Assembly: GCF_017348835.2 (NCBI RefSeq)
Contig: NZ_CP071375.1
Direction: 5' to 3' (one strand)
Length of the DNA stretch: 64,000 bases
DNA from: Escherichia coli
GTDB taxonomy: Bacteria > Pseudomonadota > Gammaproteobacteria > Enterobacterales > Enterobacteriaceae
This document shows, in pieces, positions 59,173-63,974 of this stretch (the first letter of the stretch is position 1; each line of letters opens with the position of its first letter). A program made the translations under genes and the position numbers. The notes beneath the pieces were generated by a model. That model had not been told where the DNA came from. It saw nothing but the letters and a program-made list of their open reading frames with translations, and made no database searches.

Positions 59173-60056
59173 TTATAACGTTACGGAAGCCGTTTTTTCT
59201 TCTGTCGCCATCTCTTTATTTTTGCGTTGGTTGATTTCCTCAATAATCAACGCAAACCGTTTTTCATTGAGTGTGTAAAAGAATCCCATCGTCAATGCAG
59301 CAATAATTGCCAGTGCACAAGGCCAGATAAAAATGAGCTGACGCAAACCCTGTAATGTCGCATCACTTTGCGCGATGTTTGGAACATAACCGATTTGCGT
59401 CAGCATAATCCCTGGCAAGAAGCCAGCAAGTGCGGCAGAAATTTTACGAAAGAAGGTATAACCGGTATAAACAGAACCTTCGGCACGAATACCGGTTTTC
59501 CATTCACCGTAATCTACGGTATCTGGTACCAGTGCCCAGTTCAGGCTGTTTACAAAGGCCGTGCCAAAAAAGGCGACACAAGAGAACATGACGAAAGTGA
59601 AAGAGTTACTTCCCCAGAAATAATTCAGGATATCACCAACCGCCCATAGCACCATGCCAGCTAAATAAACCTGTTTTTTACCAAAACATTTTACAGTTAA
59701 TGGCACCAGTAATACGCCGATGAGGATGCATCCCATACTGAAGAATCCCATCCACGACAATAAATTAATATCATTCAGCACATACTGGGTGTAATAGACC
59801 TGAATCGCCAGTTTGATATTAAATGCCGCCAGGGTACACAAGTTAGCAATGCATAAAACCAGCAATGGCGGATTCCGAAATATCGCGCAAAATGATTTGA
59901 GAATACTGGCTTTATGTCCGGTTGGCGTTGTGTCCACATAATGCTCTTTGACGCCTCTGTAGCACAGCATCATAAAAATAAAGCCGCCAATGGAGAACAT
60001 AAGTGCCGCACAGGCATAACCGACGGTTGAGTCAGAAAAAAGCGACTGCAACGGAA
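59173..60056 (-). pseudogene. yihO: C-terminal ~294 codons of MFS (GPH family) transporter yihO; N-terminal ~170 codons absent, frame runs into IS629 end
   Basis: ORF-track product begins mid-protein (xQSLFSDSTVGYACAALMFSIGG...) with open frame upstream up to the IS inverted repeat at 60057; K-12 YihO is about 467 aa. Confidence 0.8.
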
Positions 60057-60098
60057 TGAACCGCCCCGGGTTTCCTGGAGAGTGTTTTATCTGTGAAC

Positions 60099-60986
60099 TC
60101 AGGCTGCCAGATCATTATTTCCGATGGAAGCATAATAAGCTTTTTCTGCTTCTGCCGGAGGAATATGGCCCAGCCTTTCCAGCAATCGTCGATTGTTATA
60201 CCAGTCCACCCACGTTAGTGTGGCCAGTTCCACTTCTGTCCGGTTTTTCCAGCTCTTACGGTGTATTACCTCCGCTTTGTAAAGACCATTGATGCTCTCA
60301 GCCATCGCGTTGTCATACGAGTCGCCAGTACTCCCTGTTGATGCCAGTAATCCGGCTTCCTTAAGCCGCTGCGTGTAGGCCAGCGATACATACTGAGAAC
60401 CTTTATCACTGTGATGGATTGTGCCGGACGGCCGACGGGCCCACAACGCCTGCTCCAGTGCATCCAGCACGAATGTTGTTTCCATGGATGATGAGACCTG
60501 CCATCCCACGATGTATCCGGCGAACACATCAATGATGAACGCCACATAAACGAAGCCCTGCCATGTGCTTACCCAGGTAAAATCAGCCACCCACAACTGG
60601 TCTGGACGTTCTGCCACGAACTGACGGTTTACGCGGTCGCATGCGGCAACGGCTTTCCGGCTGACGGTAGTGCGGACCTTTTTACCCCGGAGAACACCGG
60701 CAAGTCCCATAACTGCCATGAGACGTGCCACAGTGCATCTGGCCACTCTGATACCTTCCCGTAACAACTGACGCCAGACTTTACGCACACCGTATACCTG
60801 GTGATTTTCATCGTATACGCGCTGTATCTCTTTCTTCAGCCAGTCATCGTGCTGCGCACGGGCACTGCGTTTATCCGGATGATGTCGCTGTTGCTGACAA
60901 TGGTAATACGTTGACGGGGCAATATGCAGTTCGCTGCATACCGGTCCGCCCCCGTACTGCTCACGCAGCTTATCCAGCAGTGGCAT
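60099..60986 (-). CDS. IS629 transposase OrfB (DDE catalytic part)
   Basis: 295-aa ORF in the -1 frame relative to OrfA, overlapping its stop (AAAAAATAATG); DDE integrase-like (…WVADFTW…HSDKGSQY…). Confidence 0.9.
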   Translation of the reverse strand: MPLLDKLREQYGGGPVCSELHIAPSTYYHCQQQRHHPDKRSARAQHDDWLKKEIQRVYDENHQVYGVRKVWRQLLREGIRVARCTVARLMAVMGLAGVLRGKKVRTTVSRKAVAACDRVNRQFVAERPDQLWVADFTWVSTWQGFVYVAFIIDVFAGYIVGWQVSSSMETTFVLDALEQALWARRPSGTIHHSDKGSQYVSLAYTQRLKEAGLLASTGSTGDSYDNAMAESINGLYKAEVIHRKSWKNRTEVELATLTWVDWYNNRRLLERLGHIPPAEAEKAYYASIGNNDLAA

Positions 60987-61312
60987 TATTTTTTCCAGAG
61001 GCGGTCGAACTCCGCCTTCGCAAAATAAGCGGAAGCCTGGCGAAGGATATCGTTACTGCGGCGCAGTTCACGATTTTCACGTTCCAGCTCTTTCAGACGC
61101 TGACGTTCAGCGGTGGTGAGTCCACCATCACCACTCCCGGTATCCCGCTCATGCTGGCGAACCCAGACACGCAGAGTCTCCGGCGTACAGCCAATCTTTG
61201 GGGCAATGGAACAAATTGCCGCCCACTGTGAGTCATATTCATCCTGACTTTCCAGAACCATACGAATCGCCCGCTGACGGACTTCGGGGGAAAAACGAGT
61301 ATTTTTAGTCAT
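60986..61312 (-). CDS. IS629 transposase OrfA (HTH DNA-binding part)
   Basis: 108-aa [26 protein letters not shown]... with leucine-zipper-like C-terminus, typical IS3 OrfA. Confidence 0.9.
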
Positions 61313-61455
61313 CCTGTTTACCTCTTTCTCAGGGAGTTTAGTCTCCAGGATTTCCGGGGCGGTTCACATATCCATACCTGCCAGAGAGTTCATAAATATT
61401 TGACCAATATCATTTGAATCTATGGAGAGAAAAGTACCCTTGTCGGATCTTTAAA

Positions 61456-61535
61456 GAAAGCTCATTTACGCATCATTTTTTATTTTTGCGAGGCGTTTTC
61501 CAGATATGATGTAACAGTTGCAGTTATTATAAGTT
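61456..61535. repeat. Imperfect direct repeat, copy A (about 80 bp)
   Basis: GAAAGCTCATTTACGCATCATTTTTTATTTTTGCGAGGCGTTTTCCAGATATGATGTAACAGTTGCAGTTATTATAAGTT; about 75-80% identical to copy B at 61895. Confidence 0.6.
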
Positions 61536-61609
61536 CAAGTAAAACAGCCTTGTATTAATACCAGAATAAGGGCATCTGTTTTTTTATATTCAAGAATGAA
61601 AAATTTTTG

Positions 61610-61828
61610 TCATTCCTTATGCTCCTTACACTGATCATCAACACCAACTACCTCCCCCTTTTGCCTGCCTCCCTTTGCTTTACGTACCGGAAATTGCTGA
61701 CGTTCCAGATATTGCTCTACCGCTTCGCGTAAAATTGCAGATCGTGAAACCTTACGCCAGCCCCGAAGCTTGTTCAGCCGTTTAATTGCCTCTTCTGATA
61801 AATGAAGAAAAACCGTATTCATCGCCAT
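61610..61828 (-). CDS. Ribbon-helix-helix (CopG/Arc/MetJ-like) small DNA-binding protein, 72 aa; possibly YiiE-like
   Basis: ORF track 61610..61855; start at Met10 (MAMNTVFLHLSEEAIKRLNKLRGWRKVSRSAILREAVEQYLERQ) preceded by AAGGTGG RBS; beta-strand then two helices pattern of RHH fold; basic C-terminal tail. Confidence 0.7.
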   Translation of the reverse strand: MAMNTVFLHLSEEAIKRLNKLRGWRKVSRSAILREAVEQYLERQQFPVRKAKGGRQKGEVVGVDDQCKEHKE

Positions 61829-61894
61829 TACCACCACCTTACATATATTACTCATTAATGTATGTGCGAAAATTACGCCGGAAAATTAATTAAC

Positions 61895-61975
61895 GAAAGC
61901 GGATTTTTGCATGTTGTTTTGTTTTTGCGAGACGTTCTCCAGAAATAATAAGAGCGTTGCAGTTGTTTCATTTGT
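61895..61975. repeat. Imperfect direct repeat, copy B (about 80 bp), upstream of the RHH gene
   Basis: GAAAGCGGATTTTTGCATGTTGTTTTGTTTTTGCGAGACGTTCTCCAGAAATAATAAGAGCGTTGCAGTTGTTTCATTTGTT. Confidence 0.6.
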
Positions 61976-62331
61976 TACTCAAAAATGGTTTAGTTATCGC
62001 CCAGGATGAGTTATGGGTGCTACGAATATATTATATTCAGGGATATTTATTTGCATAATCTGAATGGTGTAGCCGAAAAACGTCAGCATCCTAACAGCAC
62101 CAGGATTTAAGGTGAAATTAATCTTCCATCACAGACCTGTCAGTACTGCCACCAACCGGTCTTTACTTGCTCATCGTTATAATTTTGTTGGTAACAGTTC
62201 GGGAAACAAGGAATTCCTTCCGGCCCCCCCGGTATCATCCGATAGCATTGACGTCAATCATCGGCTCGACGGTGAGTTTTTTTAATCGCATCATAGGGTG
62301 GCAACGTTCAGCACGATACGGGTCATAACAA

Positions 62332-62371
62332 AACTCCTGAGCAGCGGCACTATGCCGCTTTCACAGGAGTT
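62332..62371 (-). terminator. Long stem-loop about 130 bp downstream of the large minus-strand ORF, candidate terminator
   Basis: AACTCCTG-AGCAGCGGCA-cta-TGCCGCT-tt-CACAGGAGTT; on the minus strand followed by TTGT (weak U-tract). Confidence 0.4.
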
Positions 62372-62498
62372 CTGAATGCTGGTGCTTTCTGTATGGCTTC
62401 GCCATGACCCTCGCGGCTAAGTGCCTGCACACTTCTCTCTATATTTGATTTTTGCAATGCATTGGCCGAATTCTGATAATCCTAATGAGTTTTACTCT

Positions 62499-63974
62499 TC
62501 AGACTCCCATCCCTACGGTATACGAGTTAGATTCATGAATGAAATCGACATTTTTAAAAAACGAATCTTGTAAAACATCCGTGTTGATATTACCTTGCAA
62601 CCCAACATTAAATTTGTTAGAGACATGAAGAACTCGAATATCAAAAAGGTCTTTTAACATCATTACTTCTTCGGCTGTTAATGAATCGCAACTAAAATAT
62701 CCCTGTTGATCAAAAAGGTTTTCTATTTCTCCACCATCGGCGAGGCGTTTTTCAAGGAGTGTTTGCAACATCGAGTTGCCAAGGACAATGGATATAGTGC
62801 GATCTTTCGCAGATTTACACCCCATCACAACGGCAACATTCGTATCCCCCTCAGGAGTTTCATTTATCGCTGTCGCTAAAATGGTGGTCAAACACGCAAA
62901 CGGAACTGTATTTCTTTCGTGATTTAATTTATCTACCAGTTCATTCCATTTATCAAAAGCCGGACGATATTTGTTGCGCACAGAAATATCCGACTGGTTA
63001 AACAATTCAGCCATGCGATTTTTTATCATCTCGATATCCGGCGAACCAGAAAGACTTTGCGCATAATACGGTCCTGATGATGTTGCATACATTAAAGCCG
63101 AGCCCACACCTGTCGCCATGATGGGCGCAGCCACGGTTTTGGCAAGGGCGACGCTGCGATGGCTATGCGCTTCACAGGTTAAAGGAACATATTCCACTGA
63201 CTGCGGTAATTCCTTACATGCCTCCCTCATCATTGCGGTATGCTTTACAAACAACGGTTTTTCACTGCCAAAAAAAACCTTCTGCTTAATTGCACTAAGA
63301 AAACGCAAATCAAAAATGATTGTTTTTGGTTTATTATTTTTTGGCACATTTCCTATTATCCCGCTAAGAACCTTCCTTGCTGCATGGAGATTTTTTTGCA
63401 CAGCACATAACACAATTGACGAAGCCTTCTCTACTTCGTCATTGATTTTAATTTTAAAATCTGCATGATATACGTTGACGGGCAGTGCAAGTATATCTGG
63501 CCCTACATCTTTGGCTGAGTATTTATTGGTGATCGACGGCCGTGAATCCACGAGAAAACTTAGCTGCAAATTATGCTCTATATTACCAGCTGTTTTTGTG
63601 GTGTGATTAAACATAGAGATGCCACCTCTCATTCTTTCACACATATCCTCAACTTTTTCACTTCGTTCTTGTGGCAATTTGGCTTTAACGTTAATTTGAT
63701 GATTTTTACCCGTGCATTCCTTAACTACAAGGGGAATGTTATCTAAAGTGCCATACAGGCTAATAACGTCACCAGGATTTTTATCATGTAAGTAAGTTTG
63801 ATTAATACTTGAAGCATTCACAAAGAGGTCAATATTATAACTGTTTATAACTTCACCTACATCAAATGTGTAGTGCTTACTCTGGAGGCTGCCATCCTTA
63901 TTTAATTGTATATCAATCAATATATCCCCGGACTTTGTCACCATATCTTTGCCATAAACCATTTGCATAGCCAT
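62499..63974 (-). CDS. Putative CX5R P-loop phosphatase, phosphoinositide-phosphatase-like (INPP4 / SopB / IpgD-type); N-terminus probably beyond window edge
   Basis: 491-aa ORF with no in-frame stop between first ATG (63974) and window end; exact CKSAKDRT octapeptide at residues 386-393 (minus strand 62819..62796, read directly as TGT AAA TCT GCG AAA GAT CGC ACT); AT-rich composition; next to IS629. Confidence 0.6.
   Translation of the reverse strand: MAMQMVYGKDMVTKSGDILIDIQLNKDGSLQSKHYTFDVGEVINSYNIDLFVNASSINQTYLHDKNPGDVISLYGTLDNIPLVVKECTGKNHQINVKAKLPQERSEKVEDMCERMRGGISMFNHTTKTAGNIEHNLQLSFLVDSRPSITNKYSAKDVGPDILALPVNVYHADFKIKINDEVEKASSIVLCAVQKNLHAARKVLSGIIGNVPKNNKPKTIIFDLRFLSAIKQKVFFGSEKPLFVKHTAMMREACKELPQSVEYVPLTCEAHSHRSVALAKTVAAPIMATGVGSALMYATSSGPYYAQSLSGSPDIEMIKNRMAELFNQSDISVRNKYRPAFDKWNELVDKLNHERNTVPFACLTTILATAINETPEGDTNVAVVMGCKSAKDRTISIVLGNSMLQTLLEKRLADGGEIENLFDQQGYFSCDSLTAEEVMMLKDLFDIRVLHVSNKFNVGLQGNINTDVLQDSFFKNVDFIHESNSYTVGMGV

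What the first reader, a model, noticed from the sequence alone, without database searches (positions are those of the whole stretch)
61367..61975. RHH regulator gene bracketed by two ~80-bp direct repeats; a second repeat-plus-gene unit appears decapitated by IS629
Copy B of an ~80-bp imperfect direct repeat (61895-61975) lies 67 bp upstream of the 72-aa RHH gene start (61828). Copy A (61456-61535) lies 63 bp upstream of a second minus-strand ATG at 61393 whose ORF (MNSLAGMDM) runs only 9 codons before hitting the IS629 terminal repeat at 61366. The matching spacing suggests a tandem duplicated promoter/operator plus small-gene unit, of which the distal copy was cut by the IS. I vaguely recall tandem CopG-like paralogues yiiE-yiiF in K-12, which would fit, but the orientation and neighbours here differ. 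Alternatively the repeats could be operator or recombination sites controlling the adjacent phosphatase-like gene.
Basis: partly seen in the sequence, partly recalled or inferred. Interest (0 to 1): 0.55.

Follow-up and report, generated by a model that had tools for sequence, protein, structure and literature searches.

The report
Twin competence-type CRP sites before yiiE/yiiF
The two ~80-bp repeats are the duplicated upstream promoter regions of the tandem antitoxin-like genes yiiE and yiiF of E. coli. [quoted passage not shown]

Summary
Copies at 61451-61528 and 61890-61967 are 59/78 identical, against 36.7±1.4 in shuffles. The ATG at 61393 is the yiiF start, and IS629 (60057-61366) cuts the gene after codon 9.

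Refinements:
- yiiF is split, not deleted. In strain PE164, which is 100% identical here, a second inverted IS629 carries the rest of yiiF 17.3 kb away. The 3-bp target duplications (ATG, GAA) are swapped between the copies, so two insertions were followed by an inversion.
- YiiF is an orphan VapB antitoxin. Its K. pneumoniae orthologue and the adjacent PIN protein are the solved VapBC complex (PDB 7BY2).
- The repeat is the best-conserved part of the duplicated unit. Its 22-bp core, TGGAA-N6-TCGCA-AAA, is the exact reverse complement of the published asymmetric E. coli CRP-S motif (TGCGA-N6-TTCCA) and closely resembles the validated sxy promoter site. It is about 99% conserved in 26 enterobacterial vapB upstream regions and sits at a fixed class-I-type distance from a conserved TANNTT hexamer.

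Sigma-54, RNA structure, small ORF and mobile repeat were tested and rejected. Sxy/CRP dependence is inferred, not shown. I could not check whether Sinha et al. 2009 already list these genes.

The parts
61890..61975 (-). Repeat copy B: upstream promoter region of yiiE, about -27 to -112 from the predicted start
61923..61944 (-). CRP-S-type site B (16-mer 61941->61926: TGGAG AACGTC TCGCA, then AAA). 9/10 to the motif here, 10/10 in K-12 and O157. Centre 105.5 nt upstream of the yiiE ATG
   Evidence: motif quoted in PMC6728893
61870..61875 (-). Predicted -10 hexamer TAATTT of the CRP-S-dependent yiiE promoter. It starts 58.5 bp after the site centre. Inferred, not mapped
   Evidence: the nearest mapped 5' end in EDL933 is 41 nt upstream of the ATG
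61610..61828 (-). yiiE, 72-aa RHH (CopG/VapB-like) protein, intact
61451..61535 (-). Repeat copy A: upstream promoter region of yiiF
61484..61505 (-). CRP-S-type site A (16-mer 61502->61487: TGGAA AACGCC TCGCA, then AAA). 10/10 to the motif and the only perfect match in the 64-kb window. Centre 101.5 nt upstream of the yiiF ATG
61431..61436 (-). Predicted -10 hexamer TACTTT of the yiiF promoter, 58.5 bp after the site centre. Inferred
61395..61411 (-). GATATT-N5-AATATT just before the yiiF start. It is the counterpart of the conserved TGATATAC-N5-GTATATATG of vapB orthologues. Putative RHH autoregulatory operator, inferred
61367..61393 (-). First 9 codons of yiiF (MNSLAGMDM). The last ATG (61369-61367) is the 3-bp IS629 target duplication and is also the alternative M9 start used in the MG1655 annotation
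60057..61366 (-). IS629 (IS3 family), 1310 bp. orfA/orfB lie on the same strand as yiiF, so the yiiF promoter now points into the transposase genes
59173..60056 (-). 3' fragment of yihO, cut by the same IS629 with target duplication GAA. This is the other partner of the inversion

Best explanation
Each ~80-bp repeat is the upstream half of the promoter of a VapB-type ribbon-helix-helix gene. The unit was duplicated in tandem in Escherichia to give yiiE and yiiF.

The conserved 22-bp heart of the repeat is a CRP-S site, the asymmetric, low-affinity CRP site that needs the co-activator Sxy (TfoX). It is centred about 70 bp upstream of a weak sigma-70 promoter with a TA(A/C)TTT -10. From there cAMP-CRP plus Sxy would recruit RNA polymerase by a class-I contact. 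The A-rich stretch and GCTTTC.TTAA that follow the site fill the alpha-CTD and -35 region.

A separate short repeat over the ribosome-binding site is the likely operator for autorepression by the RHH protein itself.

In this strain, IS629 inserted at codon 9 of yiiF. Recombination with a second IS629 in yihO then inverted 17.3 kb. The window therefore keeps the complete yiiF promoter, now aimed into IS629, but not the gene body.

Shown: the repeat, the gene identities, the IS and inversion history, the motif match, and the conservation and fixed spacing.
Inferred: CRP/Sxy binding, the exact start site, and RHH autoregulation.
For: Identity of the locus and of the IS event:
-.
- The target duplications ATG and GAA are swapped between the two PE164 IS629 copies.
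- The IS629/yiiF junction is present in 1 of 5,426 complete genomes.

VapB identity:
- YiiF is PDB 2K5J.
- The K. pneumoniae orthologue plus the downstream PIN protein are PDB 7BY2/7BY3 VapB/VapC.

The repeat is the most conserved part of the unit.

Core motif:
- PMC6728893, quoting Sinha 2009, gives the E. coli CRP-S motif as TGCGA-N6-TTCCA. It is asymmetric, orientation-independent, AR1-dependent and class-I-like.
- Its reverse complement, TGGAA-N6-TCGCA, is the core: 10/10 in copy A, in both K-12 copies and in Citrobacter, Salmonella and Klebsiella vapB.
- The validated sxy promoter site found in MG1655 is tttt CGGAA AGAGCC TCGCA aatt. It is 16-18/24 identical to the cores and has the same orientation, strong half proximal.
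- The strong half plus flank, TTTTGCGA, equals the Cameron & Redfield half-site T1T2T3T4G5C6G7A8. The weak half has G6, as they report for Enterobacteriaceae.

Conservation in 26 distinct non-E. coli sequences:
- half-sites 0.99 and 0.99, AAA flank 0.96, flanking DNA about 0.5;
- three of the six spacer positions are the least conserved columns within the site (70-90% majority; spacer mean 0.87).

Geometry:
- The site centre lies 57.5-58.5 bp before a conserved TANNTT hexamer in nearly all sequences, although the sequence between is variable. That places the centre near -70.
- Psxy has TAAGTT at +59.5.
- CRP-S sites are reported near -62, -73 and -100.
Against: - No experiment here shows CRP or Sxy binding or Sxy-dependent transcription of yiiE/yiiF.
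- A 10-base motif is expected about 9 times per E. coli genome by chance. One-mismatch matches in the window are at chance level. The weight rests on conservation and position.
- Mapped 5' ends, from cultures without Sxy induction, do not coincide with the predicted start.
  - yiiE: 201 and 117 nt in MG1655; 201 and 41 nt in EDL933.
  - yiiF: 189 and 154 nt from M9 in MG1655; 55 nt in EDL933.
- With the EDL933 starts, the site centres would be at -64.5 (yiiE) and -46.5 (yiiF).
- The MG1655 starts put the core inside some transcripts, so an RNA-level role is not excluded.
- Gene conversion between the two copies occurs, so paralogue identity within E. coli is weak evidence on its own.
- ppdD, hofM and smf upstream regions gave no match of 8/10 or better to the motif in my simple scan. 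Only low-scoring (7/10) candidates at atypical positions appeared for ppdD and hofM. The consensus is therefore loose.
Confidence: 0.7

Rival explanations
1. The repeats are operators for the RHH proteins themselves: autoregulation of a toxin-antitoxin-type promoter at a distal site, possibly looping to the proximal site.
For: - Type II antitoxins normally autorepress (established knowledge).
- The region from the core to the start codon is length-conserved.
- YiiF could cross-regulate yiiE through identical cores.
Against: - The core has no direct or inverted sub-repeats of the kind RHH dimers use.
- It is 22/22 identical upstream of yiiE and yiiF in K-12, although their DNA-reading beta-strands differ (NTVFLHL vs GRILLDL).
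- A much more typical operator, TGATATAC-N5-GTATATATG, lies over the RBS and differs between the paralogues.
- The core equals the CRP-S motif base for base.
Confidence: 0.1
2. The core acts at the RNA level, as a linear motif in the 5' leader. It could be a target for an sRNA, Hfq or CsrA, given the A-rich ARN-like tract and GGA.
For: - RegulonDB start sites in MG1655 lie 2 nt upstream of the core for yiiE (117 nt).
- For yiiF the start is about 19 nt upstream of the core (154 nt from M9, which is 130 from M1).
- The core is therefore transcribed in some mRNAs.
Against: - There is no conserved secondary structure: RNAalifold energy 0, and single-sequence z-scores scatter around 0.
- There is no Rfam match.
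- Nothing explains the two 5-bp blocks separated by 6 with a free centre, or the fixed distance to a -10-like hexamer.
- EDL933 start sites lie downstream of the core.
Confidence: 0.07
3. The repeats are recombination or cassette-boundary sites that mark insertion points in a hypervariable locus.
For: - Up to three direct core copies occur in some strains, bracketing variable DNA such as higB-like/nadS.
- The B2-lineage deletion of yiiF ends inside core A.
- An insertion of DUF6708 genes ends at the left edge of repeat A.
Against: - The element is confined to this locus: median 2 places per genome in 5,412 genomes, and none on true plasmids.
- There is no associated recombinase and no hairpin or attC-like symmetry.
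- The B2 junction is simple microhomology (CGC...AA).
- Breakpoints fall at different positions of the repeat.
- Single-copy cores are conserved in genera with no cassette variation.
Confidence: 0.04
4. The core is a sigma-54 (-24/-12) promoter: TGG ... GC with the correct 12-nt spacing.
For: - The GG and GC dinucleotides are invariant and correctly spaced.
- Variation is confined to the spacer.
Against: - A matrix built from 50 ChIP-seq sites scores the cores at -2.65 to 3.7 bits, against a minimum of 7.9 for real sites. Over 300 17-mers in the window score as well.
- There is no sigma-54 ChIP-seq or genomic SELEX peak at yiiE/yiiF in K-12.
Confidence: 0.02
5. The similarity is a neutral relic of the duplication, kept alike by gene conversion, with no function.
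For: Conversion tracts are visible: in AREA_R505 the yiiE copy carries yiiF-type sequence.
Against: - The same 22 bp is about 99% conserved upstream of single-copy vapB genes in Citrobacter, Salmonella, Klebsiella, Kluyvera, Lelliottia, Trabulsiella and Franconibacter.
- Neighbouring DNA in those loci is only about 50% conserved.
Confidence: 0.02

Closest known systems
CRP-S sites of the E. coli Sxy (TfoX) regulon, e.g. the sxy promoter site (Cameron & Redfield 2006, PMC1635313; Sinha et al. 2009 as quoted in PMC6728893)
   Same: - 5-6-5 CRP architecture.
- One TGCGA half-site (C6) with a T-tract flank.
- An asymmetric second half, TTCCA/TTCCG (G6), and never T6.
- Strong half proximal, as at Psxy.
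- A class-I-type distance to a weak TANNTT -10.
- Conserved in Enterobacteriaceae.
   Different: - It lies upstream of antitoxin-like RHH genes, not DNA-uptake genes.
- It is present twice in tandem, and three times in some strains.
- Sxy dependence is untested here.
- The window's copy B has TGGAG in the weak half.
K. pneumoniae VapBC (PDB 7BY2/7BY3) and type II toxin-antitoxin modules with RHH antitoxins
   Same: - YiiF is the orthologue of this VapB (E=3e-29; same position next to fdhE).
- It has an RHH N-terminus and a C-terminal toxin-binding tail.
- A repeat lies over the RBS, typical of autoregulated TA promoters.
   Different: - E. coli has no vapC: yiiF is an orphan.
- yiiE is a second, more diverged orphan paralogue whose C-terminal tail has diverged.
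Competence-regulated toxin-antitoxin system of Haemophilus influenzae (PMC6957337; title and abstract only)
   Same: A TA module placed under CRP+Sxy control as part of the competence regulon.
   Different: - The toxin and antitoxin families were not compared, because the paper could not be read.
- Here the inference is from sequence only, and the E. coli copies lack the toxin.
IS629/IS3-family mediated inversions in E. coli O157 and relatives
   Same: Two inverted copies, 3-bp target duplications exchanged between copies, and the intervening segment inverted.
   Different: This is a strain-specific event: it is seen only in PE164 among 5,426 complete genomes.

Membership tests
CRP-S (Sxy-dependent CRP) site | Two 5-bp half-sites separated by 6 bp within a 22-bp CRP-type site | tested here: met
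   TGGAA-N6-TCGCA at 61502-61487. TGGAG-N6-TCGCA at 61941-61926
CRP-S (Sxy-dependent CRP) site | C at position 6 (TGCGA) in at least one half-site, with a T-rich outer flank (TTTTGCGA), and no T6 in either half | tested here: met
   The proximal half plus flank reads TTTTGCGA on the complementary strand. The distal half has G6. Compare
CRP-S (Sxy-dependent CRP) site | E. coli-type asymmetry: the second half is TTCCA/TTCCG | tested here: met
   - 10/10 to TGCGA-N6-TTCCA in copy A, in K-12 yiiE and yiiF, and in 3 other genera.
- 9/10 in window copy B.
- 16-18/24 identical to the validated Psxy site.
CRP-S (Sxy-dependent CRP) site | Class-I position relative to the transcription start (near -62, -73 or -100) | tested here: inconclusive
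   - The centre is 57.5-58.5 bp before a conserved TANNTT hexamer, so about -70 by prediction.
- Psxy shows the same geometry, +59.5.
- 5' ends mapped without Sxy induction give -64.5 (yiiE) and -46.5 (yiiF) in EDL933.
CRP-S (Sxy-dependent CRP) site | Transcription requires both cAMP-CRP and Sxy | not testable with these tools
   - Needs expression or binding experiments.
VapB-type RHH antitoxin (type II TA) | Ribbon-helix-helix DNA-binding domain | tested here: met
   - YiiE: Pfam RHH_1, E=1.6e-11.
- The S. diarizonae YiiF orthologue: RHH_1, E=2.4e-6.
- YiiF is PDB 2K5J.
VapB-type RHH antitoxin (type II TA) | An adjacent, overlapping cognate PIN (VapC) toxin gene | tested here: not met
   - It is absent in E. 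coli: fdhE follows yiiF.
- It is present in S. diarizonae and K. pneumoniae.
- The E. coli genes are therefore orphan homologues, not a TA module.
IS629 (IS3 family) | About 1.3 kb, terminal inverted repeats, orfA/orfB with programmed frameshift, 3-bp target duplication | tested here: met
   - 1310 bp, with terminal repeats TGAACCGCCCCGG...
- Annotated IS3-family transposase with frameshift.
- Target duplications GAA and ATG.
Sigma-54 promoter | A match to the -24/-12 matrix and RNAP-sigma54 occupancy | tested here: not met
   Cores score at most 3.7 bits, against at least 7.9 for known sites. No ChIP-seq or gSELEX site
Dispersed repeat or mobile element (REP, MITE, attC) | Many copies per genome, or hairpin symmetry | tested here: not met
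   Median 2 places per genome, all at this locus. No internal inverted repeat. No Rfam hit

The most novel reading that the evidence does not exclude
A Sxy/CRP-S ('competence') site is an ancestral, strictly conserved part of the vapBC promoter throughout Enterobacteriaceae. It survives in duplicate upstream of the orphan antitoxin paralogues yiiE and yiiF of E. coli. A VapC (tRNA-fMet nuclease-type) toxin-antitoxin module and its orphan descendants would then belong to the competence regulon. This would parallel the competence-regulated TA of H. influenzae, and it may not have been reported for these genes.
Probability: 0.3. Interest if true: 0.55.

Novelty: new member of a known kind. Interest (0 to 1): 0.4.

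Why it matters
yiiE and yiiF are among the E. coli regulators still listed as uncharacterised. Placing both behind near-consensus CRP-S sites gives a concrete, testable condition for their expression: cAMP-CRP plus Sxy.

It also links a VapBC-type toxin-antitoxin lineage to the enterobacterial competence regulon, whose physiological role in E. coli is still debated.

The two cores match the quoted half-site consensus more closely than the sxy promoter's own site does. They could therefore serve as clean reporters for Sxy activity.

The IS629 part is ordinary. It does show how a strain can uncouple such a promoter from its gene and point it into a transposase.

Tried and rejected
- **Sigma-54 promoter.** The spacing fits, but the matrix score is far below known sites and no ChIP or SELEX peak exists.
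- **Conserved RNA structure or known RNA family.** Rfam gave none. RNAalifold found no consensus pairs, single-sequence z-scores scatter around 0, and there is no consistent inverted partner for the core.
- **Small ORF through the core (…FWKAARKSKN…).** In-frame stops lie immediately upstream and start codons are missing in many species.
- **Dispersed or mobile repeat.** The element is only at this locus and not on plasmids.
- **Viral contigs.** There were 81 pattern hits, consistent with my rough chance estimate and in unrelated contexts. A 33-nt resemblance to the 3' end of a SymE-like gene did not survive a rough correction for multiple families and has no E. coli counterpart.
- **Sigma-70 consensus scan.** It found no promoter on the gene strand.
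- **Canonical CRP, marbox, Ada box, IHF, Fis, IclR-type and LacI-type sites.** I compared these by eye from memory. None fitted the invariant positions. They were not tested with tools.
- **Published start-site tables.**
  - Cappable-seq MG1655, ROSE, Rend-seq and Shigella M90T had no yiiE/yiiF entry or no held supplement.
  - Only the EDL933 paper had data.
- **Sinha et al. 2009.** It could not be read.

Full report
**1. What is there**

The window's last 5 kb, on the minus strand, reads as follows:
- a 3' fragment of yihO (59173-60056);
- IS629 (60057-61366, 1310 bp);
- 27 nt of an ORF, MNSLAGMDM, then the IS-derived TGA;
- a 216-nt spacer;
- the 72-aa RHH gene (61610-61828);
- more non-coding DNA and an unannotatable 491-aa ORF.

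The two repeat copies are real. The repeat finder gives 61451-61528 vs 61890-61967 at 76% identity over 78 nt. Shuffled controls reach 36.7±1.4 matches, against 59 observed.

**2. Identity of the genes**

Megablast against 5,426 complete E. coli genomes hits 5,415 of them. The annotation under the match is yiiE followed by yiiF. In K-12-like and O157 genomes the yiiF start codon falls exactly at the position of window 61393.
- YiiE carries Pfam RHH_1 (E=1.6e-11).
- YiiE and YiiF are 40% identical.
- YiiF is the protein of PDB 2K5J.

**3. What IS629 did**

Strain PE164 is 100% identical to the window over 61367-62498. It is the only complete genome with this IS629/yiiF junction.
- PE164 has a second IS629, 1308/1310 identical and inverted, 17.3 kb away. 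It lies between the remaining 72 codons of yiiF and the 5' part of yihO.
- The 3-bp duplications are GAA in yihO and ATG in yiiF. The intact yihO target, CAACGGAA|TAAACG, is seen in EDL933.
- Each IS copy now carries one flank of each pair. This is the signature of two independent insertions followed by recombination between inverted copies.
- That inversion explains why fabY, dtd, yihY and yihX follow yiiE on the 'wrong' strand here.
- yiiF is therefore split rather than lost.
- The duplicated ATG is the M9 codon, which the MG1655 annotation uses as the yiiF start.

**4. YiiF is an orphan VapB**

A scan of one genome per species found relatives in about 30 Enterobacteriaceae.
- In S. enterica diarizonae and K. 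pneumoniae, the 82-aa orthologue is followed by an overlapping PIN-domain gene.
- The Klebsiella pair is, residue for residue, the solved VapB/VapC complex 7BY2/7BY3.
- E. coli lacks vapC: fdhE follows directly.

**5. The repeat is under selection**

In K-12 the 79-nt element is 78.5% identical between the two units. The coding DNA is 58% identical and the neighbouring non-coding DNA 34-45%.

A 22-bp core sits about 110 nt upstream of the start codon in 26 distinct non-E. coli sequences. Majority-base frequencies there are:

| Segment | Majority-base frequency |
|---|---|
| TGGAA | 0.99 |
| TCGCA | 0.99 |
| AAA flank | 0.96 |
| Six-nt spacer | 0.87 |
| 20 nt on either side | about 0.5 |

Within the spacer, three positions are the least conserved columns of the site.

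The element is locus-specific. The median is two places per E. coli genome, with none on true plasmids.

**6. What the core is not**

- Sigma-54: rejected by matrix score and by published ChIP-seq and SELEX data.
- Structured RNA: rejected.
- Small ORF: rejected.
- Phage or mobile sequence: rejected.

**7. What the core is**

PMC6728893 quotes the E. coli CRP-S motif of Sinha et al. 2009 as 5'-TGCGA-N6-TTCCA-3'. According to that paper:
- the motif is asymmetric and works in either orientation;
- it needs both unlike half-sites;
- it acts through CRP AR1 in a class-I-like manner.

Its reverse complement, TGGAA-N6-TCGCA, is the core. Scanning MG1655 gave these sites:

| Promoter | Left flank | Distal half | Spacer | Proximal half | Right flank |
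|---|---|---|---|---|---|
| sxy (validated) | tttt | CGGAA | AGAGCC | TCGCA | aatt |
| ybaV | aatc | CTGAA | GCCGCC | TCGCA | aaaa |
| yiiE | tttc | TGGAA | AACGCC | TCGCA | aaaa |
| yiiF | tatc | TGGAA | AACGCC | TCGCA | aaaa |

The sxy halves, TTCCG distal and TGCGA proximal, are exactly as the paper describes. All four sites have the same orientation.

The strong half plus flank equals the half-site T1T2T3T4G5C6G7A8. The weak half has G6, which Cameron & Redfield say is the rule in Enterobacteriaceae.

The window's copy A is 10/10. Copy B is 9/10 (TGGAG), a change private to this lineage: O157 and K-12 have TGGAA.

**8. Geometry**

The centre of the site lies 57.5-58.5 bp before a conserved TANNTT hexamer in nearly every sequence, including both E. 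coli copies. The variants seen are TATGTT, TAAATT, TATTTT, TAGATT, TAATTT and TACTTT. The 35 nt in between are not conserved.
- If that hexamer is the -10, the site is centred near -70.
- The sxy promoter has TAAGTT at +59.5.
- Published CRP-S positions are near -62, -73 and -100.

The ~80-bp repeat then corresponds to about -112 to -27 of this promoter. That span holds the CRP-S site, an A-rich stretch where alpha-CTD would sit, and the -35 region.

**9. Start-site data**

Table S5 of PMC10469882 lists RegulonDB and Cappable-seq 5' ends. Start-codon conventions were checked.

| Gene | MG1655 (nt upstream) | EDL933 (nt upstream) |
|---|---|---|
| yiiE | 201, 117 | 201, 41 |
| yiiF | 189, 154 (from M9) | 55 |

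- None of these cultures expressed Sxy, so the starts need not come from the CRP-S promoter.
- They do show the region is transcriptionally busy.
- Some transcripts include the core. This is why an RNA-level role keeps a small probability.
- yiiE is also reported as H-NS-bound, as SlyA-derepressed, and as a SlyA SELEX target.

**10. The RHH operator**

A different conserved block, TGATATAC-N5-GTATATATG, covers the Shine-Dalgarno sequence and start codon of vapB orthologues. In E. coli yiiF it reads GATATT-N5-GATATT, and in the window GATATT-N5-AATATT.
- This block differs between yiiE and yiiF, as do their beta-strands.
- The CRP-S core does not differ between them.
- I therefore assign autoregulation to the proximal block. 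This is inference from the general behaviour of type II antitoxins.

**11. Locus history**

- E. whittamii and E. coli O45-type strains keep an alpha/beta-hydrolase gene upstream, with a LexA-box-like sequence 70-71 bp from a core. Other genera do the same next to vapB.
- In O45/Nissle-type strains a higB-like/nadS module sits between that ancestral core and yiiE. This gives three cores in direct orientation.
- B2 strains (Nissle 1917, Z30) have lost yiiF through a microhomology deletion that ends inside core A.
- These events make the locus look cassette-like. They do not require the repeat to be a recombination site.

**12. Verdict**

- The IS event is ordinary and strain-specific.
- The added value is the identification of the repeat core as a CRP-S site conserved upstream of vapB-family genes.
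- I could not establish whether the link between Sxy and yiiE/yiiF is already in the literature. The full-text library holds no paper connecting them, but the key 2009 paper was not readable.
- I therefore classify it as a new member of a known kind, of moderate interest.

Noticed in passing
window 62499-63974 (-): A 491-aa ORF carries a CKSAKDRT (CX5R phosphatase-like) motif but has no Pfam, NCBIfam or PDB match. In O157 the region is annotated as two 'hypothetical' genes, and in PE164 as 'transposase' plus a pseudogene. It sits in a hypervariable island between yiiE and fabY.
   Followed up: partly
window 59173-61393, and L004 17234-19285 (PE164): A 17.3-kb inversion (yihP...yiiE) lies between two inverted IS629 copies, with exchanged 3-bp target duplications (GAA, ATG). 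The junction is unique to PE164 among 5,426 complete E. coli genomes.
   Followed up: yes
window 61312-61436 (-): The intact yiiF promoter now points into IS629 orfA on the same strand, about 110 nt upstream of its start. Sxy/CRP-driven read-through into the transposase genes is conceivable.
   Followed up: no
L010 about 1301-1316, L040 4349-4364 (minus strand), and most Citrobacter/Klebsiella loci: A LexA-box-like sequence, CTGTATGnATnTACAG, lies 70-71 bp upstream of the CRP-S core. It is next to a divergent alpha/beta-hydrolase gene of the hormone-sensitive-lipase type. This suggests joint SOS and Sxy/CRP control of a divergent promoter region.
   Followed up: partly
L042 (Nissle 1917) 2501-2521 and L043 (Z30): B2-type strains lack yiiF. 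The deletion junction lies inside CRP-S site A, after CTCGC, at a short microhomology. In Nissle-type strains the yiiE-side site also has a mutated weak half (TTTGGATGC).
   Followed up: partly
L041 (AREA_R505) 420-2500: Two genes, a DUF6708 gene and a hypothetical gene, are inserted between yiiE and repeat A. In this strain the yiiE repeat carries yiiF-type sequence (AACTGCAACTGTTACAT), a sign of gene conversion between the copies.
   Followed up: partly
L040 3550-4152 (O45:H2): A higB/RelE-like toxin gene and a nadS (HTH antitoxin) module are inserted directly downstream of a third, ancestral CRP-S core. The window keeps only about 20 nt of the nadS 3' end (query position about 1066, window about 62410-62432).
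   Followed up: partly
window 61367-61393; L126 2752: The yiiF start codon is annotated differently: M1 (80 aa) by PGAP, M9 (72 aa) in MG1655. The IS629 target duplication is the M9 ATG. The detached 3' part in PE164 therefore still encodes the full 72-aa version and is annotated as yiiF.
   Followed up: yes
L005, L008, L035: These look like contaminated public assemblies. An E. coli yiiE contig is filed under Bacillus coahuilensis m4-4. One 87% identical (residues 11-72) is filed under an uncultured Robinsoniella MAG. A Citrobacter-like vapB locus is filed under Chryseobacterium sp. 18061.
   Followed up: no
L009-L035, about 22 nt before the vapB start: A conserved TGATATAC-N5-GTATATATG covers the Shine-Dalgarno sequence and start codon. 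It is a likely VapB/VapBC operator, and could also form an RBS-sequestering hairpin.
   Followed up: partly
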